The notes under the pieces are model-generated. The model was not told the DNA's origin. It made no database searches and saw nothing but the letters and a program-made list of their open reading frames with translations. A stretch of DNA of 64,000 nt. It comes from an uncultured Gammaproteobacteria bacterium. GTDB lineage: Bacteria > Pseudomonadota > Gammaproteobacteria > GCA-002705445 > GCA-002716945. The stretch is taken from the NCBI GenBank assembly GCA_902559355.1, contig CACEHM010000002.1, forward strand, positions 171,246-235,245, read 5' to 3'. Positions within the stretch are counted from its first letter, which is position 1. Each line of letters begins with the position of its first letter. Shown piece by piece: positions 25,441-64,000 of this stretch. The translations under genes were made by a program, and so were the position numbers.

Positions 25441-25510
25441 ATTATTTTTCATAATAAAAAAGTATTTTTTTTTACTTGCTTTTATTATTTATCAGAATAA
25501 AGATACTAAT

Positions 25511-26134: not shown

Positions 26135-26149
26135 ACTATAATTTAAATA

Positions 26150-27636: not shown

Positions 27637-27656
27637 ATAAGAGAAGTCTCTAGTTC

Positions 27657-29419: not shown

Positions 29420-29425
29420 TATTTA

Positions 29426-29509
29426 TAGCGATAGACAGACTCGAACTGTCACTCTGTTGCCAGAATCGGATTTTGAGTCCGACGCGTCTACCAATTCCGC
29501 CATATCGCC
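29426..29509 (-). tRNA. tRNA-Leu (anticodon CAA), class II with long variable arm
   Basis: Cloverleaf read manually on the minus strand: acceptor GGCGATA/TATCGCT (G1-U72), D-arm GCG-GAATTGGTAGA-CGC, anticodon arm TCGGA-CTCAAAA-TCCGA, variable hairpin TCTG-GCAA-CAGA, T-arm GACAG-TTCGAGT-CTGTC, discriminator A, and no encoded CCA. Confidence 0.85.
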
Positions 29510-29640
29510 ATGAGTAATTTATTCTATCAAAAACACAAACACTTTGGAAAGGTGTATGTACGGATAAATGTTTGTGCAATGTTTGTGACTAAAATTTACA
29601 AATTATAAGCATTACCAAGGCATCTGATGCATCCGTCTTC

Positions 29641-42314: not shown

Positions 42315-43580
42315 ATGAGTAATCTAATTTCTAAAAAAATACGTGGCTTCCGTGACATTCTTCCTATTGAAAGTAAGAAATTTCTTTATATCGAAAATGT
42401 AATTCATAGAATTGCACCATTATTTAATGTTCAACAAATTAGATTACCTGCTCTTGAGTCAATTGATTTATTTAAAAGATCAATAGGTGAAACATCCGAT
42501 ATAGTTACAAAAGAAATGTATTCCTTTGAGGATAGAAATAATGATATTTTGTGTATGATTCCTGAGGGAACAGCTTCATGCGTTAGACTGGCATTAGAAA
42601 ATAATCTTATCTATGATAGAGGTCCTAAAAAACAACGGTTATACTACATAGCGCCTATGTTCAGACATGAGCGCCCTCAGAAAGGAAGGTATAGACAGTT
42701 TACACAATTTGGCGCAGAGTTCTTTGGTGATACATCATACACAAATGACATAGACCTTATTTTGTTAATAACAAAGATTTTTGAAAAACTTAATTTATTA
42801 GATATTAAGTTATCTATAAATACAATTGGCACTGCTGTTGACAGAAAAAAGTATTCTCAAGAATTAGTTACATATTTTCATTCTTGTAGTGAGGAATTAT
42901 CCGATGCACAACACGATACTTTAAGTAAAAACCCCATGAGATTACTTGACAGTAAGGACCCAAAACTAAAATCTATCATTGCATCTGCCCCGCTTATTAG
43001 TGGTTTTCTTAATGAAGAATCACAAGCTAATTTTGATACTATCAAGGAAAAACTTGATAGATTAAAAATTCCTTTCATACATGATCCTAAATTAGTACGA
43101 GGACTTGATTATTATAATGACCTTGTATTTGAATGGAAAACCAATAAACTTGGTTCCCAAGACGCTGTATGTGCGGGTGGAAGATATGATAATCTATCCG
43201 AAACTATAGGAGGCAAGCCTGTCCCATCTGTAGGTTTTGCGATGGGCTTAGATCGAATTGTAGAGCTTGTAGACTATGAATCAAATGTATTAATTATTGG
43301 TCTAGCTGTCATTAGTAATTCAAATGATGAAAGTTATAAAATTCTGAACTCATTAAGAAAAATTGACTTAACATTTAATCTTATTCATATGGATGATAAT
43401 AAATCACTATCCAAGCAAATAAAGCAAGCTGATAAGTCTAACTGCGATATTTTAATAATTGTAGGCAATGATGAAATAAGTAATAATACGTTTACTGTAA
43501 AACACTTGAAATGTGACAGGAAAGACCAAAATATTCCATTTGGGCAGCTAATTGATTTAATAACAGAGTATAAGAAATGA
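42315..43580 (+). CDS. hisS: histidyl-tRNA synthetase
   Basis: Class II aaRS motifs (MFRHERPQKGRYRQFTQFG, GGRYD). Confidence 0.9.
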   Translation: MSNLISKKIRGFRDILPIESKKFLYIENVIHRIAPLFNVQQIRLPALESIDLFKRSIGETSDIVTKEMYSFEDRNNDILCMIPEGTASCVRLALENNLIYDRGPKKQRLYYIAPMFRHERPQKGRYRQFTQFGAEFFGDTSYTNDIDLILLITKIFEKLNLLDIKLSINTIGTAVDRKKYSQELVTYFHSCSEELSDAQHDTLSKNPMRLLDSKDPKLKSIIASAPLISGFLNEESQANFDTIKEKLDRLKIPFIHDPKLVRGLDYYNDLVFEWKTNKLGSQDAVCAGGRYDNLSETIGGKPVPSVGFAMGLDRIVELVDYESNVLIIGLAVISNSNDESYKILNSLRKIDLTFNLIHMDDNKSLSKQIKQADKSNCDILIIVGNDEISNNTFTVKHLKCDRKDQNIPFGQLIDLITEYKK

Positions 43581-44170
43581 GTGATGAAGAAAAGGTTGTA
43601 AGTTGGCTAGAAGAAAATTATAAAGGTTTGATTGTAGGTGTAATTATAGGATTAAGCATTCTTTATGGTTACAAAGCCTACATATCAAATCAAAATACCA
43701 AACAGTTGAATTTATCTCGTGAGTATGATCTCGCAATAAACGAATATAATAGTGGAAAGATAAATGAAGTTTTAAAATTTTCCAGAAATAATATTTCTCA
43801 AAATCCTGAAAATATATATACAAGCTTAGCAAGCTTGTATTCAGCAAAGGAAATGTATAAGCAAAATAATTTTGAGGAGGCATATGTATTTTTAGAGCAC
43901 ATCATAAAATATTCATCTGATAAAGAAATAAAAAGCCTCGCTAAATACAGAAAAGCTAAATTACTTATTGAAGAGCAAAGATATGAGGAGGCTCACTTAT
44001 TAATAGGAGATGAGCCAGATAATTATCAACATATTGAATTAAAAGGAGATCTATATTTAATTCAAAATCAATACACCAAAGCAATCAATCATTATAATGA
44101 TGTTCTTACTTATAGCATCACACCAAATGAAAGAAAAAATATTATTGCTAAAATAAATTTAATCAAATGA
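43577..44170 (+). CDS. YfgM-like TPR membrane protein (ancillary SecYEG subunit)
   Basis: One N-terminal TM helix plus TPR-like helices, at the conserved hisS-yfgM-bamB-der position. Confidence 0.5.
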   Translation: MSDEEKVVSWLEENYKGLIVGVIIGLSILYGYKAYISNQNTKQLNLSREYDLAINEYNSGKINEVLKFSRNNISQNPENIYTSLASLYSAKEMYKQNNFEEAYVFLEHIIKYSSDKEIKSLAKYRKAKLLIEEQRYEEAHLLIGDEPDNYQHIELKGDLYLIQNQYTKAINHYNDVLTYSITPNERKNIIAKINLIK

Positions 44171-45426
44171 TTACTCTTAAACCCTTTATTATTGTATTTC
44201 TTTTGTTTATTACATCATGTTCTAATTTATTAACTTGGCATCTTGATAAAGGTATCCACAAACAAGCTAAGATTGATGCAAATCAATCACCATCCGCGCA
44301 GGATGATGATAATGAAGTTATAGTCAAGGTCGATATCTCAGCGAATATGGTATGGTCGAAATCTATAAATTCTGGATTAGAGGGCAATAGTGGATATCTG
44401 TATCCAGTAAAAAATAATAACACTATTTACACTGTTGACACTGATGGACTATTATCTGCGATAGATTTGACGAACGGTAATGTAAACTGGGCTATACCTA
44501 CAAATAGAGAGATCAGTTCTGGCTTAAGTGTGCTAAATGATTCGATATGTCTTGGCACAGCGAGAGCTAAATTAATATGTCATAATATTAATCAACTTGC
44601 TTCAAATAAACACACACCTATAATTACCTCATTGTCCAATCTGACAAAATTCTCTGAATATCCAGTGGATACTGAAGTGGATTTGATCACTGAACTAGCA
44701 GCCCCAGTTGTAGGTATTAATAACCTATTTTTACTTAAACTTGATAATGATGATTTATATTTAATAAATCCAGATAACGCAGAAGTCATTTGGAAGTCTG
44801 AAAGTCAAAATATTCCTTTGAGAACGAAAGGTTCCTCTAGACCATTATATCTTGATAATGCTGTCTTTGTTGCTAGAGACAATGGTTCTGTTTCTTCTTA
44901 TAGTGCTATCGATGGAACACTGAACTGGTTTACAATAATCTCCTCAAGATCTGGAAGAAATGATCTAGAGTCACAAAGAGATGCAGAAATGGAGATTCTC
45001 ATAGACAATGATAAATTATATTATGGGCATTTCCAGGGTGAACTCAATGCTCTTGATATTAATACTGGGAACATTATATGGACTAGTCCATTTTCATTTA
45101 TCAATAATATTATTATAAATAATAATTCAATCTACGGGTCTACATCAGATAATATGATTGTTTCTATTGACCAAGCATCAGGCTTTGTAAACTGGAAAAG
45201 TAAGACCTCAAGTGAGCAACTTACGCAGCCATTCATTATTAGTGATGTGGTTATGGCTTTTACTACCAAAGGAACATTAGTAGCATTTAATCAGGATGGT
45301 TACCTTATTTATGAAAAAGCATTTGACTTGGACATACACTCTCAGACACAATTTATGCAAGATGGAAATAAACTATATTTTCAAACCATAGATGGTGATA
45401 TAGTTCATTTTATAATTAATCTATAA
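44167..45426 (+). CDS. bamB: outer-membrane protein assembly factor BamB (PQQ beta-propeller lipoprotein)
   Basis: Lipobox LFITSCS, repeated PQQ-like blades (NW-containing repeats), located upstream of der. Confidence 0.7.
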   Translation: MITLKPFIIVFLLFITSCSNLLTWHLDKGIHKQAKIDANQSPSAQDDDNEVIVKVDISANMVWSKSINSGLEGNSGYLYPVKNNNTIYTVDTDGLLSAIDLTNGNVNWAIPTNREISSGLSVLNDSICLGTARAKLICHNINQLASNKHTPIITSLSNLTKFSEYPVDTEVDLITELAAPVVGINNLFLLKLDNDDLYLINPDNAEVIWKSESQNIPLRTKGSSRPLYLDNAVFVARDNGSVSSYSAIDGTLNWFTIISSRSGRNDLESQRDAEMEILIDNDKLYYGHFQGELNALDINTGNIIWTSPFSFINNIIINNNSIYGSTSDNMIVSIDQASGFVNWKSKTSSEQLTQPFIISDVVMAFTTKGTLVAFNQDGYLIYEKAFDLDIHSQTQFMQDGNKLYFQTIDGDIVHFIINL

Positions 45427-45430
45427 CTCC

Positions 45431-46756
45431 ATGACTGATTCAATCGCCCTTGTTGGCAGAACTAATGTAGGAAAATCTCTATTATTTAATAAATTAGTTC
45501 AGTATAAAAACTCGATAGTTCTAAATAAACATGGCGTTACAAGAGATGTCAATCAAGGCAAACTTTTGTATGAAGATAAATATCTACATTTATATGATAC
45601 AGCAGGTATAACATCTCAAGATGAACAGTTCACCAAACTAGCCTATGAAAAAACACTGCAAGCTATAGATAAATCATCAGTCGTACTATTTGTTACCTCA
45701 TTAGAAGATGGTGTTACATCCAGCGATAAAGAAATATGTTCAATATTGAGAAAACTTAATAAAGAGATTATTTTGGTAATTAATAAATCTGATAAACAGA
45801 AATCTATCCTTAAAAAGTATGAATTTTCAGAATTAGGAATTAATAATTCTTTTGAAGTCTCAGCTAAAACAAACAAAGGACTGCTTGATTTAATAAAAAA
45901 AACTTTTTCTTTAACTAACTCAGGTATTTATTCTGAAATAAAAACCAATCGAATTGCATTCATAGGAAAACCAAATGTAGGAAAATCAACTTTGATTAAT
46001 AGCATTTTAAATGAAAGTAGATCCATAATATCTGATACTCCAGGCACAACTATAGATTCACTTGAAATACCTTTTACATTTAAAGATCAAAACTACTTGA
46101 TTTATGATACTGCTGGTATTATGAAAAAATCCTCTACTAAAGATATTATCAATAAATATTCTATAAATATGTCATTAAAATGCATTAACGATGCAAATGT
46201 ATGCATACTAGTCATATCGGGTACTGAACTTGTATCAAAACAAGATAAAAATATATTTAATATAATTAAAGAAAACAATAAACCATTTATTCTTGTAATA
46301 AATAAAGTTGATTTAATAAATAAAAATGATATGAAAAAACTTAGAAGTAGTATTGATTATTTTTCTAATATTTTATTTGGAACAAAAATTATCTATTTAT
46401 CGGCACTTGAAAATAGAAATATAAGAAAACTTCTTTTTACAATCAAAGGATTGGTTTCTAACTTACATAAAGAATATAGACCATCAAAGCTGACAAAAAT
46501 ATTAAATGACGCGTGTAATAAACATCCAGTAAAAAATAATCGCAACAGATTAATAAAACTTAAATTTGCAAAACAGAACAAAAGTTCTGATTTCTCGATT
46601 TCAATACATGGAAATCAAACTGATAAGATTCCAGATTCATATCGGAAATATTTAGTAAATTATTTTTCAGATCAGTTGGGACTTTCAGGTGTTCCTATAA
46701 GATTAATTTTTAAAAAAGAAAAGAACCCATATGATATGGGTTCTAATTCAAAATAA
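45431..46756 (+). CDS. der: ribosome-biogenesis GTPase Der (EngA)
   Basis: Two G domains (GRTNVGKSLLFN, GKPNVGKSTLIN) and a KH-like C-terminus. Confidence 0.9.
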   Translation: MTDSIALVGRTNVGKSLLFNKLVQYKNSIVLNKHGVTRDVNQGKLLYEDKYLHLYDTAGITSQDEQFTKLAYEKTLQAIDKSSVVLFVTSLEDGVTSSDKEICSILRKLNKEIILVINKSDKQKSILKKYEFSELGINNSFEVSAKTNKGLLDLIKKTFSLTNSGIYSEIKTNRIAFIGKPNVGKSTLINSILNESRSIISDTPGTTIDSLEIPFTFKDQNYLIYDTAGIMKKSSTKDIINKYSINMSLKCINDANVCILVISGTELVSKQDKNIFNIIKENNKPFILVINKVDLINKNDMKKLRSSIDYFSNILFGTKIIYLSALENRNIRKLLFTIKGLVSNLHKEYRPSKLTKILNDACNKHPVKNNRNRLIKLKFAKQNKSSDFSISIHGNQTDKIPDSYRKYLVNYFSDQLGLSGVPIRLIFKKEKNPYDMGSNSK

Positions 46757-46761
46757 TTCAA

Positions 46762-47034
46762 TTAGTCGGCTGTTTTTGGACTAATTATATTTTTTACTTC
46801 TGAGATACTATTTGCAGGAAAACCACCTGTGTTAGCATGCTCTTTGATAAGTTCTGCATTATCAGCATTATAGACACAGTAAACTTTATCTCCTGTTACA
46901 TAACTTTGAACCCATTCGATACCAGTACCCATATCTTTAAGAATTCCACATGATTTTTGTGAAATACCCTTTAGATCATCAGATGTAAGATCTCCAGCAC
47001 CTGCTATCTCTCTTTCTATTACATATTGTGGCAT
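46762..47034 (-). CDS. DUF4242-family small protein
   Basis: MPQYVIEREIAGAGDLTSDDL...GFPANSISEV resembles the DUF4242 consensus (MP.F..ER...GAG.LT..EL...GFPA). Confidence 0.4.
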   Translation of the reverse strand: MPQYVIEREIAGAGDLTSDDLKGISQKSCGILKDMGTGIEWVQSYVTGDKVYCVYNADNAELIKEHANTGGFPANSISEVKNIISPKTAD

Positions 47035-47102
47035 ATTACCCCTCCTTTATTTATATCTTGATATTATCTTATTATATTAATTAATTATCAAGCATACATA
47101 GT

Positions 47103-47918
47103 CTAGTTATTAATCAATTCTAGCGGATCTATGTAACTATTATTGAGCATGACCGACCAATGCAAGTGTGGCCCTGTTGATAGACCCGTTGATCCAATGG
47201 CTCCTATGATTTGACCTTTCTCAATAATGTCATCTTTTTTCACAGCTATTTCATCTAGATGAAGAAATATACTAATAAGATTATTTCCATGGTTTACCAT
47301 TATAAATTTACCATTATAATAGTAGTCTCCAGTGAGAGTCACTATTCCTGATGAAGGTGCATATACTGGAGAACCTAAGTCTGCAGCAATATCATATCCA
47401 TTATGATAATTACCTTTTTTACCATTATAATATCTGACTGTACCATATGTACCTGATGATGGTCCTACCGCTGGCATAGTAAACTTATAATCAGGAAACC
47501 TATCATAGGTTTGTTTTTTTGCTTTAATCATTTCGTCTCTTTCTTTTGCTATACGCTTATATTCATCTTCTGTTTTAGTTTTAAACTTTTTTATTTCAAT
47601 TCTTTGAATAGGATATTTATTTTTTAAAATATTTAAAGTCACTTTCTTAATGATTTTTTCACTCTTGAATATAAACTGATTCTTACCATCTTTTGTATAA
47701 TAAGGGATACCAAATAGTAGATAGGGACTGTTATCTTTTAAGACCTTAGTAGTTAGATTGCTATTATAATAAAAGTTCATCGATCTTTCATTTTCTTCTA
47801 ATGAAATAAAAACAATATCACCAGGACTATAATCTGTATCTGAATATGTATTTACAGAAAAAATAAAAAGTATCGATAATATTAGTAATCTAGATAAGAT
47901 TGGTATTTTTCCATCCAT
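47103..47918 (-). CDS. M23-family metallopeptidase (peptidoglycan DD-endopeptidase)
   Basis: An N-terminal signal/TM segment and M23 motifs (HNGYDIAA...GSPVYA; NHG; TGLSTGPHLHWSV). Confidence 0.8.
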   Translation of the reverse strand: MDGKIPILSRLLILSILFIFSVNTYSDTDYSPGDIVFISLEENERSMNFYYNSNLTTKVLKDNSPYLLFGIPYYTKDGKNQFIFKSEKIIKKVTLNILKNKYPIQRIEIKKFKTKTEDEYKRIAKERDEMIKAKKQTYDRFPDYKFTMPAVGPSSGTYGTVRYYNGKKGNYHNGYDIAADLGSPVYAPSSGIVTLTGDYYYNGKFIMVNHGNNLISIFLHLDEIAVKKDDIIEKGQIIGAIGSTGLSTGPHLHWSVMLNNSYIDPLELINN

Positions 47919-53908: not shown

Positions 53909-55215
53909 AATGTATCCGGAACCTCGTCAAGTATTTTATTATCTATCTTATTATCTTTTTGTTCTAAAAATGAGATTATATCATAGTATTGTTTAACATT
54001 TTCTATATATTGAACTGCTTCCCAGCCTCGTGCATATCCATATTTCATTTGTTTATAAAATTGTTTTTTATTTAACTTCAGTAAATATTTTTTAAGCGTA
54101 TCCCAATCCTCAATGCTTTTATTATCTAAAATAGAAAGTTTAATAATATCGCTTATATGACCAGGACCAAGGTTATAGGCACCAAGTGTCATGTTAATTT
54201 GTGTATCTTCATTAAATTCAGTATATTTTCCTCTTAGTTTTTTTAAGTACCTAGATGCTCCAATGATACTCTCATCAGGTATTAGTCTATTAACTCCTAG
54301 CATTTCAGCAGTATTCTTTGTAAGCATCATTAAACCTCTGACCCCTGTTGGTGATATTGCATCATTATTCCATTTTGATTCCTGATACGAAATTGCAGCA
54401 AGTAATTTCCAATCCAGATTATTTAGTGACGCTGCTTGTTTGAACTTACTTTCATAAACAGGAAGCTTTGTAACCATATCTGAAATAAATATTCTGGATC
54501 CTATAAATATATATGATGATATAGAATTCTTTGAATAATACTTATTATTTAAATCAGCAACTAAAGAGGATGTTTCGCTTGATTCTAAAAACTTAAAAAG
54601 ATTATTTTGTAATGAACCATCATCTACTGAAAATTTCCACAATAGATTGATTTTCCCAATAACTTTTTTTATAGATAAGTTTGGATAATATTTTTTATAA
54701 AACAAGTATGAGCTTCTTGTTATAATTGTATGAGAAATAAGGTTTTTACTAAGATTATAAATTAAGTCATCTAAACTGTTATTCACATAGCTCATTTTAT
54801 AATTTTTTAAAATAGCATTATCAATTAAACTTTTTTGAAATGTCTCTATAATTTCAATATCATATTCTTCATTATCATAATCATTAGAAACTAATAATAA
54901 ATCTTGATTGTTGATAACAATACATTTTTCACAAATATCCTTAGAATAAAATATCTTTAAATCAAACTTACTATCATTAAATTTTACTTTTTTCTTATTT
55001 AAACTATCAAGGTACTCTATTAAAATTTCATATTGATAACCAGCATTTTCCTCTTTTGCGGGAAGAATTATTTCAGGTAAGTTCTCAAGACTTACAAAAA
55101 TTATTTCTTTCTTTTTGAATTGTGTAAATGATGTTTGTGTGGTATTTGTGTACAGTAAATAGATTACAGCAATGAGTATCATTGCAGCTAAAAATCTAGC
55201 AAATAACCTTAACAT
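53905..55215 (-). CDS. mltF: membrane-bound lytic murein transglycosylase F-like (PBP-like N-domain + SLT domain)
   Basis: C-terminal SLT motif [26 protein letters not shown] and an N-terminal signal peptide. Confidence 0.65.
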
Positions 55216-57029
55216 TACTCTTCGTTATTTTTTGACCGAGTATTTTTTGTATAGTTCCTTCTATTATTGGATTTATATTTATTATATTTATAATTTTTAT
55301 TATAACGTCTATTCTTATTATAATATCTTCTCGGTTTTGAAGATTTCTTTTCTTCTTCTTTACCAAAGAGCATGTTAAATATTCTCTTAAATATATTCAA
55401 TTTAGATTTTGATATTTTTGCGTTAGTTTTGCGCGGTTTAGGTGGCGCACTCTTTGGTGCAACTGCAGACATAAGAGCAACCTCTTGATCTTGAATAATC
55501 TTTCCATCTACTGCATTATTATTTTTGTTATAACGTTGACTTTTATTTTTATTTTTCAATCTTTCTTTAAAATCAGATTCACTAAGACCCTCATTATCTA
55601 TTTCATATCCAGAGGCATCTAGTTCAGGATCAGGTACAATTTTAATAGCTACATTATGTCTAGACTCAATATTTTGTATTGTTCCTTTCTTTTCATTTAA
55701 CAAAAAAGTTGCCAATCTTACTGGGAGATATACTGTTTGTTTTGTTTCAGCATTCATTGCTTCTTCTTCTATTATTCTTAGAAGGGATATGGCCAGCGAA
55801 GATAGAGATTTAATCTGTCCTGTTCCTCCGCAAGTAGGACAATTTTCATAGTTATTTTGTATTATTGATGATTTTAGTTTTTGCCTAGATAGCTCCATTA
55901 GACCAAATTTTGATATTCTAGCAAATTGTATTTTAGCTTTATCTTTTTTTGCATATTCAGCAACTTTTCTCATTACATTTTTTTGAGAATTAATAGACAT
56001 CATATCAATAAAATCAATTACAATAAGTCCACCTATGTCCCTAAGCCTCAGTTGAGTTAATATTTCTATTGCAGCTTCAATATTTGTATTTTGTGCCGTG
56101 TCTTCTATATCACTTCCTTTAGTAGATCTAGCAGAGTTAACATCAATGCTCACCAGAGCTTCTGTTGAATCAATTACTATATTACCACCAGAAGGTAAGT
56201 TAATATTTCTTTTGTAAACAGTTTGTACTTGCCTTTCAATTTTATGTTTACTGAATATTGGCGTTAGGTCCGAGTGATGCTCAGTCTTAACTTTATGATG
56301 AGGCATAAAAAGTTTCTTTGCACCAATAAAATCATCAAAAAACTTCTTATCATCAATGAAGACTTCATCAATAGTCTCATCACAATAATCTCTAATAAGC
56401 CTAGCCATCATACTACTTTCTTGATAGATAAGAAATGGAGCAGTTTGCTGTATAGATGTCTCCAAAACTGATTCATATATCTGAATTAAATATTCAATGT
56501 CCCATTTAACCGATTCATTTGACGCTTCGAGACTTGATGTTCTGAGTATAACGCTCATTCCTTCAGGAATTTCAAGTGATTCCATAAGTTTTTTTGCCTT
56601 CACTCTGTCTTCACCTTCTATTCTTCTCGAAATTCCTCCTGTAGATGGATTCTTTGGAAGTAATACTAGGTATTTTCCAGCAAGGCTTAGATAAGTAGTT
56701 AATGCGGCACCCTTGTTTCCACGTTCTTCTTTATCAACTTGTACTATTACTTCTTTTCCAGATTGAAGACAATCACGAGATGACTTGTTTGTATGTGAGA
56801 ATATCTCAGGGGAAATCTCTTTAAATGGAAGAAACCCATGTCTGGTTCTTCCAAAGTTAATGAACGCTGCTTCTAAGCTTGGTTCAACCCTTGAGATTGT
56901 GCCTTTGTATATGTTTGATTTGATGTTCCTTGATGGAAAGTCTATATCTAAATCTATCAGCTTGTTGTCTTCTATGACAGCAAGTCTCACCTCTTCCTTC
57001 TGAGAGGCGTTGAGTAATATTTTTTTCAT
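55215..57029 (-). CDS. rne: ribonuclease E (minimal form: catalytic domain + short basic tail)
   Basis: S1 and catalytic-domain motifs (NIYKGTISRVEPSLEAAFINFG, DIDVNSAR), a zinc link (CPTCGGTG), a low-complexity R/K/N/Y-rich C-terminus, and the divergent rluC neighbour as in enterics. Confidence 0.85.
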   Translation of the reverse strand: MKKILLNASQKEEVRLAVIEDNKLIDLDIDFPSRNIKSNIYKGTISRVEPSLEAAFINFGRTRHGFLPFKEISPEIFSHTNKSSRDCLQSGKEVIVQVDKEERGNKGAALTTYLSLAGKYLVLLPKNPSTGGISRRIEGEDRVKAKKLMESLEIPEGMSVILRTSSLEASNESVKWDIEYLIQIYESVLETSIQQTAPFLIYQESSMMARLIRDYCDETIDEVFIDDKKFFDDFIGAKKLFMPHHKVKTEHHSDLTPIFSKHKIERQVQTVYKRNINLPSGGNIVIDSTEALVSIDVNSARSTKGSDIEDTAQNTNIEAAIEILTQLRLRDIGGLIVIDFIDMMSINSQKNVMRKVAEYAKKDKAKIQFARISKFGLMELSRQKLKSSIIQNNYENCPTCGGTGQIKSLSSLAISLLRIIEEEAMNAETKQTVYLPVRLATFLLNEKKGTIQNIESRHNVAIKIVPDPELDASGYEIDNEGLSESDFKERLKNKNKSQRYNKNNNAVDGKIIQDQEVALMSAVAPKSAPPKPRKTNAKISKSKLNIFKRIFNMLFGKEEEKKSSKPRRYYNKNRRYNKNYKYNKYKSNNRRNYTKNTRSKNNEE

Positions 57030-57229: not shown

Positions 57230-58144
57230 ATGATGAAAAAATCTAATATTTTTGAAATAAATCAAGAACTAAGCGGGCAAAGACTTGATAATTTCTTGAT
57301 TAAAAAGCTAAAAGGCTTACCAAAAAGTCTTATTTATAAGCTCGTGAGAAGCGGGCAAGTCAGGGTCAATAAGAAGCGTAGTAAAGTATCCTATAGGATT
57401 TCAGATAATGACCTCATACGAATACCACCATATCTTCTTCAGGAGAATGTAATAGCAGATAAAATCTTACTAAATACCAACGAATATATATATTATGAAA
57501 ATGAAAATTTCTTGGTAATTGATAAACCATATGGCATATCAGTCCATTCTGGGACTAATCAAGAAGTTGATTTCTTATCTTCATTAAGAAAGGCTCAAAA
57601 TAATCTTAATTTATCATTGGTTCATCGTTTAGATAAAAATACCTCCGGGTGCCTCCTAGTATCAAAAAATTATCATGTAGCATCCGACCTAGGTAAAGAA
57701 CTAATGAATAAAAATATTAAGAAAAAATATTATGCTTTATTAGTAGGAGTATTAGACAAGGAAATTATTGAAATAGAATCAAAGATAGAAAAAGATGCTA
57801 AGTATCAAAAAATGATAGTGAATGAAGATGATGGAAGAGAAGCATATACTAAGATAACTCTTCTACAAAAGTATAAATCTTTTTCATTTGTTGAGATCGA
57901 GATCGAAACAGGCAGAACACATCAAATTAGAGTTCATACATCATCTATTGGACATCCTGTAGTGGGCGATAGCAAATATGGTGTATTAAATAGTAAAAAG
58001 ATTAATAAAGAATTAAATTTAAAAAGGTTATTCTTGCATGCGTATTACTTATCTTTTTACTATGATAAAAAATATGAATTTATATTAGATTTACCTGATG
58101 ACTTAAAAGAAGTATTATCAGTATTAGAGAAAGATAATGAGTGA
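57230..58144 (+). CDS. rluC: 23S rRNA pseudouridine synthase RluC
   Basis: An S4 domain and the RluA-family catalytic motif HRLDKNTSGCLL. Confidence 0.8.
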   Translation: MMKKSNIFEINQELSGQRLDNFLIKKLKGLPKSLIYKLVRSGQVRVNKKRSKVSYRISDNDLIRIPPYLLQENVIADKILLNTNEYIYYENENFLVIDKPYGISVHSGTNQEVDFLSSLRKAQNNLNLSLVHRLDKNTSGCLLVSKNYHVASDLGKELMNKNIKKKYYALLVGVLDKEIIEIESKIEKDAKYQKMIVNEDDGREAYTKITLLQKYKSFSFVEIEIETGRTHQIRVHTSSIGHPVVGDSKYGVLNSKKINKELNLKRLFLHAYYLSFYYDKKYEFILDLPDDLKEVLSVLEKDNE

Positions 58145-59033
58145 AAACGATAAAACATTAAATGATATAGTCTCTGCGCTCTTAGCGGAAAGAAAGCGAG
58201 ATTATCGGAATAAGCTTATTTTTAGATCATTATTTGTATTAGTTATTTTTTTTATTGTCTTTTTTGCTCCGATGGCAAAAGATATTAATTTTAATGATCC
58301 ACATGTTGCTATGATTGAAATAAATGGACTAATTTCATCAGAGACTAAATCTAGTGCCGAGAAGATTATTCCTCTCTTGCAAAGAGCAAGTCAAAATATA
58401 AATGCATCAGCTATTATTATTAAAATCAATAGCGGAGGTGGAAGTGCAACTCAATCTAAGATTATTTATGACGAAATCGTTAAAATTAAAAAAACATCGA
58501 ATAAGAAGATCATATCTGTTATAGAGGACGTCGGGGCATCTGGCGGTTATTATATAGCTATGGCAGCTGATCATATTATTGCATCGGAGACGAGCATAGT
58601 TGGTTCTATTGGAGTAAGGTTAGATAGTTATGATATAAGACGTTTATTTAATAATCTGGGTATTAAGTCAAGAACAATTTATTCTGGAGAAAATAAATTA
58701 ATATTAGACCCATTTCATGAATTAACATCAAAACAATATGATCATGTAAAAAGTTTAACAGATGAGATTCACACTCAGTTTATCAATGACCTAAAAAGCA
58801 GCAGAAAAGATAAAATCAATCCTGATGATAAACTTATTTATTCAGGCCTATTTTATACTGGCAATCAGGCCAAAGCACTTGGTTTGGTAGATGATATATC
58901 TTCTATTTATAAGTTAAATAATGAAGAATATGAGAATATGAAAATCCAAAAATATAATAGTGAAAATAATTTAATCAATCAGCTAATACAAACATCTTTT
59001 CATTATTTATTTCAAAGTAAAATAAATTATTAA
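58137..59033 (+). CDS. sppA: signal peptide peptidase SppA (S49, 36K type)
   Basis: S49 motifs (EDVGASGGYYIAMAADHI, GSIGV). Confidence 0.8.
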   Translation: MSENDKTLNDIVSALLAERKRDYRNKLIFRSLFVLVIFFIVFFAPMAKDINFNDPHVAMIEINGLISSETKSSAEKIIPLLQRASQNINASAIIIKINSGGGSATQSKIIYDEIVKIKKTSNKKIISVIEDVGASGGYYIAMAADHIIASETSIVGSIGVRLDSYDIRRLFNNLGIKSRTIYSGENKLILDPFHELTSKQYDHVKSLTDEIHTQFINDLKSSRKDKINPDDKLIYSGLFYTGNQAKALGLVDDISSIYKLNNEEYENMKIQKYNSENNLINQLIQTSFHYLFQSKINY

Positions 59034-60496
59034 TGGCAAATATATATTTTCATCCTGATATTGATTATCAAGGGATAAAAGATATTGAAAATAAATATAC
59101 TTCTATTGATAAAGATTATTTAGTAAATGAAGCTTCAGATTATATCTGTCAAATTCTGAAGAAATTAGTAAAAAAAACAGACAGCATTCTTTTCATTTGT
59201 GGACCTGGTCATAATGGTCTCGATACTTTATTTACTGCACATAAACTCTTAGATCTAAAATACAATATCTCAATTTTTTTGATACAAAAAAACACCCATG
59301 TAGAATATGTTAAAAAATATGACCTAAATAATTTTATTATTAGTGCTTATGATGCATACGATAGTTATGCATATATCATAGATGGCATTTTTGGATACGG
59401 ATTAAATAGAAACCTTGATAACAATTCAATAGATCTAATTAAATCAATCAATCAATCGTCATCGAAAGTAATTTCTGTGGATATGCCAAGTGGACTTAAC
59501 CATACTACTGGACAATCCATGCCTGTAAGCCTTAGATGTGAGCTTCTAATTTCATTATTAACTATGAAAAGAGGCCTTTTTACTAATCGAGGCAGGGACT
59601 CTTGGAAAGAAATCACTATTTGTAAGCTTATAAATGCAGAGATTACATCTAAGAATTATTTAGTAACTGCTAATAATAAATTTGGTAATGATTCAAATAT
59701 TAAATCTAAAGATTATTATCATGAAGAATCTCATTCAACACATAAGAAATCAAATGGAGTAAGTTGTATTGTTGCAGGAGAAAAACCGTATCATGGAGCG
59801 ATGATACTTGCTGCCTCAGCAGCCATTCAAACTGGATCAAAGTATCTACAAATTTATACAGACTCCGAGTATGCCCATACTTTACCAATGATTATGCCTC
59901 AAATCATCGCAAAGCCATTTTCGATATCTGATTTTAAAGATAACATTGGAACAGTCAAACATGTATTAATTGGTCCAGGTGCTAATGATGTTAAGGCATA
60001 TGTCGATGTTGCTCTGGAAAATATTACTTCACTCAGCTCATTGATAATTGATGCAGGAGGATTGAGTCACATTGATAAAAACAAATCATACTCAGATAAA
60101 TTAATTATCACCCCTCATCCAGGTGAAGCAGCTAGAATATTGAATATCTCGGTATCAGAAGTTCAAGCAGATAGATATAAAACAGCTCGTAAGTTATATG
60201 ATTTATTCAATTGTCTTATAATACTTAAAGGTTCAGGATCAATTATATTTGATGGTGATAGATTTTATACCTGCATGGACGGCAATTATAAAATGGGGAC
60301 TGCAGGTATGGGTGATACGCTTAGTGGAATTTTATTAACTGAAACAGCATTATTTAAAAACAATCTAGATGCTTGTATAAAAAGTGTTGTTTTTCACTCT
60401 TATGCGTCTGATGTCTTGTATCAGGAATCAAAAAATAAGAATATTACACCATCAATTTTATCAAATAAATATAGCGAACTGACGGATGGCAAATAA
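59033..60496 (+). CDS. nnr: bifunctional NAD(P)H-hydrate repair enzyme Nnr (epimerase + dehydratase)
   Basis: YjeF-N motif ICGPGHNGLD and C-terminal kinase-like motifs (GMGDTLSGIL). Confidence 0.85.
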   Translation: MANIYFHPDIDYQGIKDIENKYTSIDKDYLVNEASDYICQILKKLVKKTDSILFICGPGHNGLDTLFTAHKLLDLKYNISIFLIQKNTHVEYVKKYDLNNFIISAYDAYDSYAYIIDGIFGYGLNRNLDNNSIDLIKSINQSSSKVISVDMPSGLNHTTGQSMPVSLRCELLISLLTMKRGLFTNRGRDSWKEITICKLINAEITSKNYLVTANNKFGNDSNIKSKDYYHEESHSTHKKSNGVSCIVAGEKPYHGAMILAASAAIQTGSKYLQIYTDSEYAHTLPMIMPQIIAKPFSISDFKDNIGTVKHVLIGPGANDVKAYVDVALENITSLSSLIIDAGGLSHIDKNKSYSDKLIITPHPGEAARILNISVSEVQADRYKTARKLYDLFNCLIILKGSGSIIFDGDRFYTCMDGNYKMGTAGMGDTLSGILLTETALFKNNLDACIKSVVFHSYASDVLYQESKNKNITPSILSNKYSELTDGK

Positions 60497-60908
60497 AAAT
60501 TACCTCATTAAAAATCTTGGTGATTATGTATCACTTTTTAAAAACATCAACCTTTGTGTCAATAGTAGAACGGTAATTTTTTTAAAAGGAGAACTTGGTT
60601 CCGGAAAAACGACTTTTGTTCAAAATTATCTCAAATATAAATATGCTTTTACAAATGCCACTAGTCCAACATTTGGAATAGTGAATACGTATTCAATTAG
60701 TCAAATAATGATATATCATTATGATTTATACAGAATCACAAAACCAGAGGAGCTTAATGACATAGGACTTTATGATAATTTAGAGGCAAACGCTCTTCAT
60801 TTTGTCGAGTGGCCTGAAATAATTCCTAAACAAATCTGTAAGCCAAATATTATAATTAATTTTCAATCACTTTCTAAAGAACGAATAATATCTATCAATA
60901 TTATATGA
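60486..60908 (+). CDS. tsaE: tRNA threonylcarbamoyladenosine biosynthesis protein TsaE
   Basis: P-loop GELGSGKTTF and the conserved HFD/YR motifs. Confidence 0.8.
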   Translation: MANKNYLIKNLGDYVSLFKNINLCVNSRTVIFLKGELGSGKTTFVQNYLKYKYAFTNATSPTFGIVNTYSISQIMIYHYDLYRITKPEELNDIGLYDNLEANALHFVEWPEIIPKQICKPNIIINFQSLSKERIISINII

Positions 60909-61822
60909 ATAATATTTTTATCCTCATAGGACCTACTGCTTCTGGGAAATCTAATTTAGCCATGATGTTGATGAGCAAATTCCCTTTTGAAATAATTAAT
61001 GCAGATTTATATTCTACATACAAAGGTTTAAATATAGGAACAGCAAAACCCTTAAAAGAAGAATTAAATAAATATAAGCATCATTTAATTAATATCCTTG
61101 AACCTACAATGGATTATAATGTTTCTCAATATTGTAAAGATGCAAATGAATGTATTAATGAGATATTATCATTAAATAAAGTTCCACTAATTGTTGGCGG
61201 CACCATGATGTATATATATCAATTATTAAACGGACTTTCTCATGAGTATGATCTGTCTGATACTGACTCAAAACTTATCAAATTTATACAAAACCAATAT
61301 ACTAATGAACAAATAGTTAAGGCTATTTCTAGTTTTAGTCCTGCTTTGACTGACAAAATTAATATTAACGATTCGTATCGTATAGAAAAACTCTTAGAGC
61401 GTTTAATATCAAATAAGAATAAAAAAAATAATTTTAAAGGTTTATATAAAGAAAAAAATCTAAAAATTCATATTATTTTTATTACTATCGATGATAGAGA
61501 ACTTTTGAGGGAAAACATAATGAAAAGAACTTCTAATATGTTGCAAGATGGACTGATTGATGAAGTTAAAAATCTATTATGTAAATTTAATTTAAATTAT
61601 AAGACCCAATGTATGAAAGCAATTGGATACAAGGAAACTTTACAGTTTCTTAATAAAGACATTAGTCTTGAGGAGCTTCATTCGTCAATAACAATTGCCA
61701 CTCAGCAACTTGCTAAACGTCAAGTAACTTGGATGAATAAATTCAAGATTGATTATCGATTTTCATATCCTGAGAATAATTACCATAGTCTTTTTAATTA
61801 TATTAAAAAAATATTAAATTAA
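60905..61822 (+). CDS. miaA: tRNA dimethylallyltransferase
   Basis: P-loop GPTASGKS plus the MiaA body. Confidence 0.9.
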   Translation: MNNIFILIGPTASGKSNLAMMLMSKFPFEIINADLYSTYKGLNIGTAKPLKEELNKYKHHLINILEPTMDYNVSQYCKDANECINEILSLNKVPLIVGGTMMYIYQLLNGLSHEYDLSDTDSKLIKFIQNQYTNEQIVKAISSFSPALTDKININDSYRIEKLLERLISNKNKKNNFKGLYKEKNLKIHIIFITIDDRELLRENIMKRTSNMLQDGLIDEVKNLLCKFNLNYKTQCMKAIGYKETLQFLNKDISLEELHSSITIATQQLAKRQVTWMNKFKIDYRFSYPENNYHSLFNYIKKILN

Positions 61823-61882
61823 ACTAATATAAAATTGATGAGCTGATATCTATGGTATATTATCTAACTGGAGATAATTTAT

Positions 61883-63001
61883 ATGGCATGGAATGAACCT
61901 GGTAATAAAGACCCTTGGGGCAGAAACAAGAATAACTCTAGTTTAGATGGAGTTTTCAAAGATTTTAAAAAAACAATAGATGATTTATTAGGAGGTAAAG
62001 CAGGCTCGACTCCACCTTCTTCTCAAAAAAGTGCCGGATTTTTATCTGTAATCATTTTAGTTATTTACCTATTATCTGGGATCTATATTGTAAATGATGG
62101 AGAAAGAGGCGTCGTTCTTCAGTTTGGGGGTTTCAATGAGATAACAATGCCGGGTCCTCATTGGTATCCAAGATTTATACAAGCTGTTGAAATTGTAGAT
62201 GTGAGTAAAATAAGATCTGTTCAACAAAAAGCTGTAATGCTTACAGAGGATGAGAATATTGTAAGCATAAGTTTCGCAATACAGTATGATATTAAAGATG
62301 CTAGTGACTTTATATTTAATCTGCGTGAACCAGATACAACAGTCTCACAAGCTGGAGAAAGTGCTATAAGGGAAGTTATGGGACAAAATACAATGGACTA
62401 CATCATCACGGAAGGTAGGACTGGAGTAGCTGCGGATACAAAAAAATTGCTACAAAGCGTACTTGATAGCTATGGAGCTGGTGTAAATGTTCAAACTCTT
62501 AACATTTTAGAGGCACAGCCACCTGAACAAGTTCAGGATGCATTTTCCGATGCAATTAAAGCAAGAGAAGATGAGCAAAGATATATCAATGAAGCTGAGG
62601 CTTACAGAAATGAAATCATCCCACTTGCAAGAGGTGAAGCTAAACAAATGTTGGAGCAAGCCATAGCTTATAGAGTTAAATTAATCAATGCAGCAGAAGG
62701 TGAGGCATCAAGGTTTACTCAGCTATATAATGAATATAAAAAAGCTCCCGACGTTACTAAAGAAAGATTATATATTGAAGCAGTTCAATCAGTTTTATCT
62801 AATAGCAGCAAAGTAATGATTGATATTGAAGGTGGGAATAACTTAATGTATCTTCCTCTAGATCAACTTATCAATAATAATAAGCAGCCTAGAAATAATA
62901 ATGATCTACAAAAATCAGATAATGAAACCAACATAATGGATCGCATAAATGAAAATAAAAATAATTTTAATCTAAGGAAAAGGGATTTATATAATGAATA
63001 A
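61883..63001 (+). CDS. hflK: FtsH protease modulator HflK
   Basis: Single TM helix followed by an SPFH/band-7 domain, with hflC downstream. Confidence 0.9.
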   Translation: MAWNEPGNKDPWGRNKNNSSLDGVFKDFKKTIDDLLGGKAGSTPPSSQKSAGFLSVIILVIYLLSGIYIVNDGERGVVLQFGGFNEITMPGPHWYPRFIQAVEIVDVSKIRSVQQKAVMLTEDENIVSISFAIQYDIKDASDFIFNLREPDTTVSQAGESAIREVMGQNTMDYIITEGRTGVAADTKKLLQSVLDSYGAGVNVQTLNILEAQPPEQVQDAFSDAIKAREDEQRYINEAEAYRNEIIPLARGEAKQMLEQAIAYRVKLINAAEGEASRFTQLYNEYKKAPDVTKERLYIEAVQSVLSNSSKVMIDIEGGNNLMYLPLDQLINNNKQPRNNNDLQKSDNETNIMDRINENKNNFNLRKRDLYNE

Positions 63002-63863
63002 TAGAAACCTTGTTACAGGATTAGTCGCTTTAGTATTAATTGCAATATCTTCAACTTTTATAGTCGATGAAAGGGAAGTTGTAATAAAGTTCAGATTAGG
63101 CGAGATTGTAACAACTTATAATGAGCCAGGCTTATATTTTATGATTCCTTTTTTGAATAATGTTAAAAAATATGATTCAAGGCTCTTAACAATGGACTCT
63201 AAACCAGAACAGTTTCTTACAAGTGAAAAGAAAAACGTTATAGTTGATTCGTTCGTCAAGTGGAGAATATCCGACCCTAGAAACTTTTACAGATCTTCCA
63301 AGGGTGATGAAAGAATCGGGGTCAATCGTTTATCACAAATAGTCAATGATTTGACAAAAAGTGAGTTCAGTAAACGAACTGTTAATGATGTGGTATCAGG
63401 TGATAGAGTAGAAATAATGGCTAAAGTTACAAAAGAGGCTAACCAATTGTCTCAGACATTAGGAATAACTGTGGTAGATGTAAGACTTAAAAAAGTTGAT
63501 TTACCTAGTGAGGTTAGTAACTCTGTATATGCACGAATGGTAAAAGAAAGAGCTACAGTAGCTAAATCATTTAGGTCTAAAGGTAAAGAAGAAGCAAAGG
63601 GTATTACTTCTCTCGCTGAGCGTGAGTCTGAAACAATTATTGCTGAGGCTTATAGAGAGTCTCAAGAAATAAAAGGACAAGGTGATGCGCAATCTACACA
63701 AATCTATGCAGATGCATTTTCTGTTAGCCCTGATTTCTACTCATTTTATAGAAGTTTAGAAGCATATAAATCAACGTTTAATGATAAAGGAAATATGATA
63801 CTTCTAAAACCAGATTCTGATTTCTTTAAATTTTTTAATGACACTGATGGTGTTACAAAATAA
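62994..63863 (+). CDS. hflC: FtsH protease modulator HflC
   Basis: SPFH domain, 8-nt overlap with hflK. Confidence 0.9.
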   Translation: MNNRNLVTGLVALVLIAISSTFIVDEREVVIKFRLGEIVTTYNEPGLYFMIPFLNNVKKYDSRLLTMDSKPEQFLTSEKKNVIVDSFVKWRISDPRNFYRSSKGDERIGVNRLSQIVNDLTKSEFSKRTVNDVVSGDRVEIMAKVTKEANQLSQTLGITVVDVRLKKVDLPSEVSNSVYARMVKERATVAKSFRSKGKEEAKGITSLAERESETIIAEAYRESQEIKGQGDAQSTQIYADAFSVSPDFYSFYRSLEAYKSTFNDKGNMILLKPDSDFFKFFNDTDGVTK

Positions 63864-63865
63864 CG

Positions 63866-64000
63866 ACTTTAGAAACAGTAGCACTAGTTTTTGCATTTAT
63901 TTTAATAATCGAAGGTATTATTCCACTAATTTACCCCAACAAGTTCAAAAACTTACTTTCCTCAATAATAGATATGGACGATAAATCATTGAGAATGATT
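63866..64000 (+). CDS. possible DUF2065 (YjeT-like) small membrane protein, 3'-truncated, start unclear
   Basis: The frame reads TLETVALVFAFILIIEGIIPLIYPNKFKNLL, which is YjeT-like, and it follows hflC as yjeT does in E. coli. There is no ATG/GTG/TTG between the upstream in-frame stop at 63845 and this region. Confidence 0.25.

What the first reader, a model, noticed from the sequence alone, without database searches (positions are those of the whole stretch)
60486..61900. tsaE-miaA-hflK block lacking amiB/mutL and hfq/hflX
In most gammaproteobacteria the order is nnr(yjeF)-tsaE-amiB-mutL-miaA-hfq-hflX-hflK-hflC. Here tsaE overlaps miaA, and miaA is followed 60 nt later by hflK. No Hfq-like Sm ORF (about 80 aa) and no HflX GTPase occur anywhere in this window. 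Loss or relocation of hfq and mutL fits a streamlined, fast-evolving genome and bears on sRNA regulation and mutation rate.
Basis: partly seen in the sequence, partly recalled or inferred. Interest (0 to 1): 0.5.

Follow-up and report, generated by a model that had tools for sequence, protein, structure and literature searches.

The report
hfq and mutL deleted from operon
In a tiny-genome marine gammaproteobacterium, the usual gene row tsaE-amiB-mutL-miaA-hfq-hflX-hflK-hflC has been cut down to tsaE-miaA-hflK-hflC; this is an ordinary case of genome streamlining, and whether Hfq and mismatch repair are gone from the whole genome is likely but could not be checked here.

Summary
On the + strand the window carries nnr (59033-60496), tsaE (60486-60908), miaA (60905-61822, 4-nt ATGA overlap with tsaE), a 60-nt spacer, hflK (61883-63001), hflC (62994-63863) and the start of yjeT. 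BLAST and profile-HMM scans of all six frames find no hfq, hflX, mutL or amiB in the 64 kb.

The same junctions occur in four independent assemblies of relatives. MiaA identity to these falls as low as 62-63%, so the two deletions are old and fixed.

One relative (BS301-5m-G69) is classified in GTDB order GCA-002705445, family GCA-002716945. This is an uncultured, about 30% GC marine lineage with genomes of roughly 1.1 Mb, reported as a sister group of SAR86. Published SAR86 marker tables show MutS and MutL absent even from a closed genome.

The 60-nt spacer is more conserved than the flanking genes. It reads as a sigma-70-type promoter plus ribosome-binding site for hflKC.

Another low-GC marine lineage with contigs of about 1.1 Mb keeps miaA-hfq-hflX-hflK, so losing hfq/hflX is not automatic at this genome size.

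Genome-wide loss versus relocation could not be tested with the scans available. I judge loss likely, at about 0.7. This is a new member of a known kind of event and of low to moderate interest.

The parts
57230..58144 (+). RluC-like RluA-family pseudouridine synthase. First gene of the tightly packed + strand run, divergent from rne.
   Evidence: TIGR00005 1.4e-68; S4 plus PseudoU_synth_2.
58137..59033 (+). S49 (SppA/SohB-like) peptidase. Overlaps rluC by 8 nt and nnr by 1 nt.
   Evidence: PF01343 1e-31. Coordinates.
59033..60496 (+). nnr (yjeF), the bifunctional NAD(P)HX epimerase/dehydratase. It is the canonical upstream neighbour of tsaE.
   Evidence: YjeF_N 8e-28 plus Carb_kinase 6e-42. 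tblastn to E. coli Nnr 4e-42.
60486..60908 (+). tsaE, the t6A ATPase subunit. Intact, with a P-loop GELGSGKTT.
   Evidence: TIGR00150 7e-32, above cut-off. PF02367 3.6e-29.
60905..60908 (+). First deletion junction: the ATGA overlap of the tsaE stop and miaA start, at the place where amiB-mutL lie in E. coli.
   Evidence: Sequence. E. coli order. The same tsaE-miaA overlap occurs in L001, L002 and L008 (4 nt) and in L003, where the listed TTG start gives a longer overlap.
60905..61822 (+). miaA, tRNA dimethylallyltransferase. Intact, with an N-terminal P-loop GPTASGKS.
   Evidence: TIGR00174 1.4e-70. PF01715 9e-65.
61823..61882 (+). Second deletion junction: a 60-nt spacer at the place where hfq-hflX lie in E. 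coli. It contains TTGATG (61835-61840), a 17-nt gap, TATTAT (61858-61863) and GGAG (61870-61873). I infer it is the hflKC promoter plus Shine-Dalgarno sequence.
   Evidence: Promoter-like hit. The spacer is 83.6% identical to L003/L008, against 65-68% for tsaE and miaA DNA and 79-80% for hflK DNA; it is 100% identical to L001. No significant RNA fold, z -1.3.
61883..63001 (+). hflK, an FtsH modulator.
   Evidence: TIGR01933 1.5e-95; HflK_N plus Band_7.
62994..63863 (+). hflC, an FtsH modulator. Overlaps hflK by 8 nt.
   Evidence: TIGR01932 8.7e-80.
63872..64000 (+). Start of a yjeT-like (DUF2065) ORF, cut off by the window end. It continues the canonical order.
   Evidence: tblastn to E. coli YjeT 6.5e-8 in the window and 1e-9 to 1.6e-11 in L001-L003.
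42315..46756 (+). hisS-yfgM-bamB-der run. In betaproteobacterial-type gene orders hfq follows der; here it does not.
   Evidence: Pfam. A der-hfq-hflK order is seen in L048/L065. No Hfq anywhere in the window.
55215..57029 (-). Short RNase E of 604 aa: the catalytic half plus a basic tail, without the long C-terminal scaffold of E. coli Rne. This is context for reduced RNA-decay and sRNA machinery.
   Evidence: NF008074 matches profile positions 1-628 of 1068 only.

Best explanation
The region is the ancestral gammaproteobacterial gene row nnr-tsaE-amiB-mutL-miaA-hfq-hflX-hflK-hflC-yjeT-(hisZ)-purA after two clean internal deletions: one of amiB-mutL and one of hfq-hflX.

Shown:
- Both deletions are fixed in a lineage related to GTDB order GCA-002705445, family GCA-002716945. 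This is a low-GC, free-living marine group with genomes of about 1.1 Mb.
- The window holds none of the four genes.

Inferred:
- What remains works as two units. The first is a run rluC-S49 peptidase-nnr-tsaE-miaA in which each gene overlaps the next by 1 to 11 nt, so the genes are probably co-transcribed and translationally coupled.
- The second is hflK-hflC(-yjeT), now driven by its own sigma-70-type promoter and ribosome-binding site in the conserved 60-nt spacer. In E. coli these genes are reported to be driven from promoters upstream of and within miaA/hfq (from memory, not checked).
- The four genes were most likely lost from the genome, not moved. That would leave the cell without Hfq-dependent riboregulation, the HflX ribosome-splitting factor, MutL-dependent mismatch repair and this amidase. 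Such losses fit, and would feed, the small genome, low GC and long branches of the lineage.
For: Gene identities and geometry.

Canonical order: E. coli and many metagenomic contigs.

No hfq, hflX, mutL or amiB in the window or in about 10 kb of extra flank in relatives, by tblastn and by purpose-built profile HMMs.

Identical junctions in independent assemblies:
- L001 and L002, from MAG LRMED-302 (MiaA 86-90% identical).
- L003, from Black Sea MAG BS301-5m-G69 (62%).
- L008, from the 1,065,287-bp contig of GCA_038143935.1 (63%).

Lineage: BS301-5m-G69 is o__GCA-002705445; f__GCA-002716945, 31.3% GC. The order has genomes of about 1.1 Mb. It is reported as a sister of SAR86. Its circular genomes still score below 85% (CheckM1) or about 75% (CheckM2) completeness, meaning many 'universal' markers are missing.

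SAR86 marker table: MutS domains I, II and IV, MutL, RuvABC, RadA and RecN are absent from the closed HIMB1674 genome and from almost all genomes shown.

Further erosion in the same syntenic stretch of L008: purA is followed directly by rlmB (no nsrR-rnr), and rpsF directly by rpsR (no priB).

No hfq after der.

Spacer conservation and promoter-like hexamers. Sequence differences between relatives fall between the -35 and -10 hexamers and between the -10 hexamer and the Shine-Dalgarno sequence. That pattern is typical of a promoter.
Against: Only about 74 kb of a roughly 1.1 Mb genome (6-7%) was examined, so relocation of any of the four genes is not excluded.

A comparably small, low-GC marine lineage (L131, with contigs of 1.06-1.15 Mb) keeps hfq-hflX between miaA and hflK. 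Genome size alone therefore does not predict the loss.

The SAR86 mismatch-repair data come from a sister order, not from this lineage.

Its failure to find an Hfq from this lineage is weak evidence.

The promoter reading rests on a consensus match in AT-rich DNA. Such matches are no more frequent here than in shuffled sequence (36 found against 43.5 expected). Only the conservation argues for function.
Confidence: 0.7

Rival explanations
1. Relocation. One or more of hfq, hflX, mutL or an AmiB-type amidase is still encoded elsewhere in the genome, and only the gene order has changed.
For: Most of the genome was not seen. Hfq sits at other positions in other bacteria, for example after der in L048/L065. 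E. coli itself has several amidase paralogues (established knowledge). A similarly small marine lineage retains hfq-hflX.
Against: Neither of the two usual hfq positions (after miaA, after der) holds it. The junctions are clean and ancient. MutS and MutL are absent from the genomes of the sister order. Circular genomes of this order lack many universal markers. Streamlined genomes tend to lose genes, not shuffle them (general knowledge).
Confidence: 0.22
2. The ancestor of this lineage never had amiB-mutL and hfq-hflX at this locus, so the arrangement is primitive and no deletion took place.
For: The lineage branches deeply in the Gammaproteobacteria. The L131 lineage also lacks amiB-mutL before miaA and has tsaB there instead.
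Against: Both flanks (nnr-tsaE; hflK-hflC-yjeT-hisZ-purA) match the canonical row gene for gene. mutL-miaA-hfq and miaA-hfq-hflX-hflK-hflC recur across very different bacteria in the metagenome sample, including Firmicutes-type Hfq loci. The L131 lineage, weakly placed as sister, has miaA-hfq-hflX-hflK.
Confidence: 0.06
3. Assembly or binning artefact: the junctions come from misassembly of a metagenomic contig.
For: Related MAGs show long-read frameshifts (split rluC, hisZ and purA in L008; truncated miaA and hflK in L002).
Against: The same tsaE/miaA overlap and the same 60-61-nt spacer appear in the window and in four other loci from three projects and different sequencing technologies. All genes at the junctions are full-length in the window.
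Confidence: 0.01

Closest known systems
E. coli amiB-mutL-miaA-hfq-hflX-hflK-hflC superoperon (b4169-b4175), with nnr-tsaE upstream and yjeT-purA downstream
   Same: Same genes in the same order and orientation for nnr, tsaE, miaA, hflK, hflC and yjeT in the window, with purA following in relatives. Protein identities to E. coli are 25-51%.
   Different: amiB, mutL, hfq and hflX are missing. tsaE overlaps miaA. hflK follows miaA after 60 nt that carry their own promoter-like element. hisZ lies between yjeT and purA, as in many non-enteric Gammaproteobacteria.
SAR86 (Magnimaribacterales) genome streamlining with loss of mismatch-repair and recombination genes (PMC11582366)
   Same: Reported sister lineage with low GC and genomes of 1.05-1.66 Mb. 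MutS and MutL markers are absent even from the closed isolate genome. CheckM completeness is underestimated for circular genomes of both orders.
   Different: It is a different order. That paper's marker table does not cover hfq or hflX, and I could not read gene order at this locus in a named SAR86 genome.
Low-GC marine lineage with contigs of about 1.1 Mb, represented by L131 (GCA_045561235.1) and L050/L125
   Same: About 29-30% GC, contigs of 1.06-1.15 Mb, very abundant in marine metagenomes. No amiB-mutL before miaA. hflK-hflC-hisZ-purA lie downstream.
   Different: It keeps hfq and hflX between miaA and hflK and has tsaB, not tsaE, before miaA. Its taxonomy was not resolved here. A sister relation to the window's lineage has only about 50% bootstrap support.
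28% GC lineage with a betaproteobacterial-type order, represented by L048/L065
   Same: Another streamlined marine genome in which the same superoperon is partly eroded.
   Different: Its order is der-hfq-hflK-hflC-hisZ-purA. hflX is lost but hfq is kept.
Loss of hfq and/or mutLS in other reduced genomes (Buchnera, high-light Prochlorococcus, SAR11). Recalled from memory, not checked here.
   Same: Small, AT-rich genomes with fewer regulatory and repair genes.
   Different: Different phyla or lifestyles.

Membership tests
TsaE (TIGR00150 / PF02367) | Equivalog HMM score above the curated cut-off, plus a Walker A P-loop | tested here: met
   110.1 bits against a cut-off of 60.1. GELGSGKTT is in the translation.
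MiaA (TIGR00174 / PF01715) | Equivalog HMM score above the cut-off over the full length, plus an N-terminal P-loop | tested here: met
   237.9 bits against a cut-off of 148.65, covering residues 5-281. GPTASGKS is present.
HflK / HflC (TIGR01933 / TIGR01932) | Paired adjacent SPFH/Band_7 genes, each best matched by its own equivalog model; HflK_N domain on HflK | tested here: met
   319.6 and 267.9 bits against cut-offs of 159.4 and 134.4. PF12221 is present on HflK.
Hfq (PF17209) | An Sm-fold ORF of about 70-100 aa with the Sm2 motif YKHAIST, present in the window | tested here: not met
   No tblastn hit at E<=1 with E. coli, Pseudomonas or Bacillus Hfq. The best HMM hit, from a model of 93 Hfq sequences, had E 0.73.
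Hfq (PF17209) | Present anywhere in the genome of this lineage | not testable with these tools
   Only the window and 10-kb flanks of relatives could be read.
HflX (TIGR03156; GTP-bdg_N plus GTP-bdg_M plus MMR_HSR1) | A GTPase with the HflX-specific N-terminal domains, present in the window | tested here: not met
   The only GTPase hit is ORF 45431-46756. It has two MMR_HSR1 domains plus KH_dom-like, so it is Der.
MutL / MutS mismatch repair | Full-length MutL (GHKL ATPase plus DNA_mis_repair plus MutL_C) or full-length MutS (domains I-V), present in the window | tested here: not met
   No MutL hit. The only MutS signal is a 144-aa ORF carrying domain I alone.
Canonical gammaproteobacterial nnr-tsaE-amiB-mutL-miaA-hfq-hflX-hflK-hflC row | All nine genes contiguous and in this order | tested here: not met
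   Five of the nine are present in the right order; four are missing at two junctions.
GTDB order GCA-002705445, family GCA-002716945 | Placement by genome-wide marker phylogeny | tested here: inconclusive
   Assignment is indirect. The window's MiaA is 62% identical to that of MAG BS301-5m-G69, and the two regions are fully syntenic. The MAG's authors classified it there. The window itself was not placed on a tree.

The most novel reading that the evidence does not exclude
An abundant, free-living marine gammaproteobacterial family has completely lost Hfq, HflX, MutL/MutS and its AmiB-type amidase, while a similarly small marine lineage, weakly placed as its neighbour, keeps Hfq and HflX. That would give a natural paired comparison. 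It could show what Hfq-dependent regulation and mismatch repair are worth to a cell with a 1.1-Mb genome, and whether their loss drives the lineage's long branches and low GC.
Probability: 0.5. Interest if true: 0.4.

Novelty: new member of a known kind. Interest (0 to 1): 0.25.

Why it matters
If the loss is genome-wide, this lineage joins the short list of free-living bacteria that do without Hfq and mismatch repair.

- Absence of MutL/MutS would help explain its fast sequence evolution, low GC and high microdiversity.
- Absence of Hfq, together with a short RNase E, would mean post-transcriptional control works differently or hardly at all.
- The contrast with a comparably small lineage that keeps hfq-hflX gives a usable natural comparison.
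- A practical point: such systematic losses are why completeness estimators under-score these genomes.

Taken by itself, though, the finding is a routine consequence of genome streamlining and reveals no new mechanism.

Tried and rejected
1. I first assumed the lineage was SAR86/TMED112. This was rejected: the relative BS301-5m-G69 is classified in order GCA-002705445. SAR86 data are therefore used only as sister-group context.
2. An exact look-up of the window's MiaA in public assemblies found nothing on record.
3. Literature searches for SAR86 plus hfq or mutL, and for the accession numbers, returned nothing useful on hfq. The supplement of the LRMED MAG paper is not held. The accession numbers were not in the SAR86 supplement.
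4. I scanned metagenomes for an AT-rich coding version of the Hfq Sm2 motif, to catch a relocated hfq. Every low-GC proteobacterial-type locus carries its own hflK and/or hflC at only 43-51% identity to the window's. None is therefore from this lineage, and the result is inconclusive for absence.
5. A protein search with a low-GC marine Hfq, looking for a hit on the 1,065,287-bp contig, was filled by one other abundant lineage. All 120 hits were at least 91% identical to the query.
6. I tried to step outward with MiaA against 1.84 billion cluster representatives. There are no intermediate relatives: one representative at 59%, then 40% or below. The depth of the deletion beyond the family could not be mapped this way.
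7. A neighbour-joining tree of HflK plus HflC put the window's lineage next to the L131 lineage with only 158/300 bootstrap support (146/300 after Dayhoff recoding). This was not used as evidence. A first attempt timed out.
8. Reading the spacer as a structured RNA was rejected: z-score -1.3, and no Rfam family in the window except one tRNA.
9. A PADLOC search of the island proteins gave no meaningful hit.


Full report
**What is there**

The + strand from 57230 to the end of the window is a tightly packed run of genes:
- an RluC-like pseudouridine synthase (57230-58144)
- an S49 peptidase (58137-59033)
- nnr/yjeF (59033-60496)
- tsaE (60486-60908)
- miaA (60905-61822)
- a 60-nt spacer
- hflK (61883-63001)
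- hflC (62994-63863)
- the first 43 codons of a yjeT-like ORF

All assignments rest on curated equivalog or Pfam models scoring well above their cut-offs. tsaE and miaA overlap by the four bases ATGA. nnr and tsaE overlap by 11 nt. The miaA stop and the hflK start are exactly 60 nt apart.

**What is missing**

E. coli K-12 has nnr-tsaE-amiB-mutL-miaA-hfq-hflX-hflK-hflC-yjeT-purA. The same partial orders recur in many unrelated metagenomic contigs.

In the window:
- tblastn with the E. coli proteins finds no Hfq at all and nothing credible for MutL or AmiB.
- For HflX it finds only a weak match to another GTPase.
- I then built profile HMMs from 93 Hfq, 48 HflX, 22 MutL and 11 AmiB sequences taken from the fetched loci. 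I ran them without filters on every stop-to-stop segment of at least 30 aa in the window and four related loci. Again there was no Hfq (best E 0.73), no MutL and no AmiB.
- The HflX model hit only ORF 45431-46756. Pfam shows that ORF to be Der/EngA, within a hisS-yfgM-bamB-der run.
- hfq follows der in betaproteobacterial-type gene orders (seen in L048/L065). So the second usual home of hfq is also empty here.

**How old and how real the junctions are**

A scan of one genome per species found three related loci. A protein search plus contig look-up found a fourth.
- L001 and L002 come from Mediterranean long-read MAG LRMED-302 (MiaA 86-90% identical).
- L003 comes from Black Sea MAG BS301-5m-G69 (62%).
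- L008 comes from the 1,065,287-bp contig of GCA_038143935.1 (63%).

All four have nnr-tsaE-miaA, a 60-61-nt spacer, then hflK-hflC, followed by yjeT-hisZ-purA. Five assemblies from different projects and technologies rule out an assembly artefact. The MiaA divergence shows the deletions are old and fixed.

In L008 the erosion continues downstream. purA is followed directly by rlmB (no nsrR-rnr), and rpsF directly by rpsR (no priB).

**Whose genome this is**

- The authors of BS301-5m-G69 classified it as c__Gammaproteobacteria; o__GCA-002705445; f__GCA-002716945, with 31.3% GC and an estimated size of 1.27 Mb.
- North Sea members of the order have 1.1-Mb genomes.
- A phylogenomic study of SAR86 places GCA-002705445, together with PIVX01, as sharing a common origin with SAR86.
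- The Great Barrier Reef study recovered 135 genomes of the order, 34 of them circular. It notes that even the circular ones score below 85% (CheckM1) or about 75% (CheckM2) completeness, so many 'universal' markers are truly missing.
- The window's own 30% GC and overlapping genes fit this picture.
- Against 1.84 billion cluster representatives, the window's MiaA has a single full-length relative at 59% identity, and everything else is at 40% or below. The lineage is isolated and probably fast-evolving.

The assignment of the window itself to this family is indirect. It rests on synteny plus 62% MiaA identity.

**Loss or relocation**

Evidence pointing to loss:
- Both canonical hfq sites are empty.
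- The junctions are clean.
- Neighbouring non-essential genes have also been shed.
- In the sister order SAR86, the published marker table shows MutS domains I, II and IV, MutL, RuvA/B/C, RadA, RecN and others absent from the closed HIMB1674 genome and from nearly all the genomes listed.

Evidence urging caution:
- A metagenome scan for an AT-rich coding version of the Hfq Sm2 motif, and a follow-up protein search, uncovered a very abundant marine lineage with 29-30% GC and contigs of 1.06-1.15 Mb (L050, L125, L131 = GCA_045561235.1, and reef assemblies).
- That lineage carries ispD-ispF-tsaB-miaA-hfq-hflX-hflK-hflC-hisZ-purA. It also has no amiB-mutL before miaA, but it keeps hfq and hflX.
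- A third lineage, at 28% GC (L048/L065), has der-hfq-hflK-hflC, so it has lost hflX alone.

The superoperon is therefore being eroded piecemeal and independently in different streamlined marine bacteria, and small size does not by itself predict which genes go. I put genome-wide loss of hfq and mutL in this lineage at about 0.7, and relocation of at least one of the four genes at about 0.2.

**How the remnant probably works**

The five upstream genes overlap or abut one another. They are most simply read as one operon with translational coupling, starting in the 200-nt rne/rluC divergent intergenic region (inference from geometry).

The only real intergenic gap is the 60-nt spacer, and it is under stronger constraint than the genes around it:
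- Against L003/L008 it is 83.6% identical, compared with 65-68% for tsaE and miaA DNA and 79-80% for hflK DNA.
- Against L001 it is 100% identical, compared with 87-90% for the coding DNA.

It contains TTGATG, a 17-nt gap, TATTAT (TATCAT in the distant relatives), and GGAG nine bases before the ATG. The differences between relatives fall between these elements. It has no significant RNA structure.

I therefore read the spacer as a dedicated sigma-70-type promoter and ribosome-binding site for hflKC. It replaces transcription that in E. coli is reported to come from promoters upstream of and within miaA/hfq (my recollection of the literature, not checked here). The promoter call is an inference. 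Consensus matches in this AT-rich DNA are no more frequent than in shuffled sequence, so only the conservation supports it.

**Comparison with what is known, and verdict**

The kind of event is well known: loss of regulatory and repair genes, with preserved synteny, in a streamlined, AT-rich genome. SAR86 gives a documented parallel for mismatch repair. I found no paper mentioning hfq in this order or in SAR86, so the specific case appears undescribed. It is still a new member of a known kind.

It would interest people who work on marine genome streamlining or on the phyletic distribution of Hfq, mostly as a lead for a simple genome-wide check. Interest: 0.25.

Noticed in passing
window 27202-27636 (+), within an island at about 25500-29420 next to tRNA-Leu(CAA) 29425-29510 (-): A stand-alone 144-aa protein made of MutS domain I only (PF01624, 1.1e-7, 32.5 bits against a cut-off of 20.6). 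It is not a gene fragment: 34 homologue clusters of about 138 aa, 35-95% identical, exist in public (mostly marine) metagenome assemblies. In the window it sits between a Schlafen AlbA_2 protein (26150-27226) and a DUF6994 protein (27657-28352). In other strains (L140, L141) it lies between Schlafen AlbA_2 plus DUF2130 and a type I restriction-modification system (hsdM-hsdS-hsdR). There are no PADLOC hits. It is possibly a defence-island gene, and worth a separate look in a lineage that may lack full-length MutS.
   Followed up: partly
window 61823-61882: The miaA-hflK spacer is more conserved than the genes that flank it: 83.6% against 65-80% versus distant relatives, and 100% against 87-90% versus close ones. 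It carries promoter-like hexamers and a Shine-Dalgarno sequence.
   Followed up: yes
window 55215-57029 (-): RNase E is only 604 aa. It matches positions 1-628 of the 1068-position E. coli-type model and ends in a lysine-, asparagine- and arginine-rich tail. The long C-terminal degradosome scaffold is absent.
   Followed up: no
L048 1170-1388 and L065 6565-6783 (28% GC metagenome contigs): The gene order is hisS ... der-hfq-hflK-hflC-hisZ-purA, with only about 48 nt between hfq and hflK. hflX has been lost but hfq kept, in a different low-GC marine lineage with a betaproteobacterial-type order.
   Followed up: partly
L131 (GCA_045561235.1, JBJKYB010000002.1, 1,064,527 bp), L130, L132-L139, L050, L125: A very abundant marine 'Gammaproteobacteria bacterium' lineage with about 29-30% GC and contigs of 1.06-1.15 Mb. 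It carries ispD-ispF-tsaB-miaA-hfq-hflX-hflK-hflC-hisZ-purA: it keeps hfq-hflX and has no amiB-mutL before miaA. Its taxonomy was not resolved. A sister relation to the window's lineage has about 50% bootstrap support.
   Followed up: partly
L008 13147-17162: Downstream of hflC the relative's genome runs hisZ-purA-rlmB-rpsF-rpsR-rplI-dnaB. Compared with E. coli, nsrR and rnr are missing between purA and rlmB, and priB is missing between rpsF and rpsR. Several genes (rluC, hisZ, purA) are split in L008, probably by long-read frameshift errors.
   Followed up: no
L001 and L002 (both from MAG LRMED-302, contigs C1 and C8): The same MAG holds two contigs covering the same region, at 86% and 90% MiaA identity to the window, so the bin mixes at least two strains. 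L002 has truncated miaA (270 aa) and hflK (284 aa), and L001 has a broken rne. These are probably assembly errors.
   Followed up: no
window 42315-47918: A hisS-yfgM-bamB-der run is followed on the opposite strand by an M23 (LytM-type) peptidase at 47103-47918. Such proteins usually activate cell-wall amidases, so this one may be an orphan if the AmiB-type amidase is really gone.
   Followed up: no
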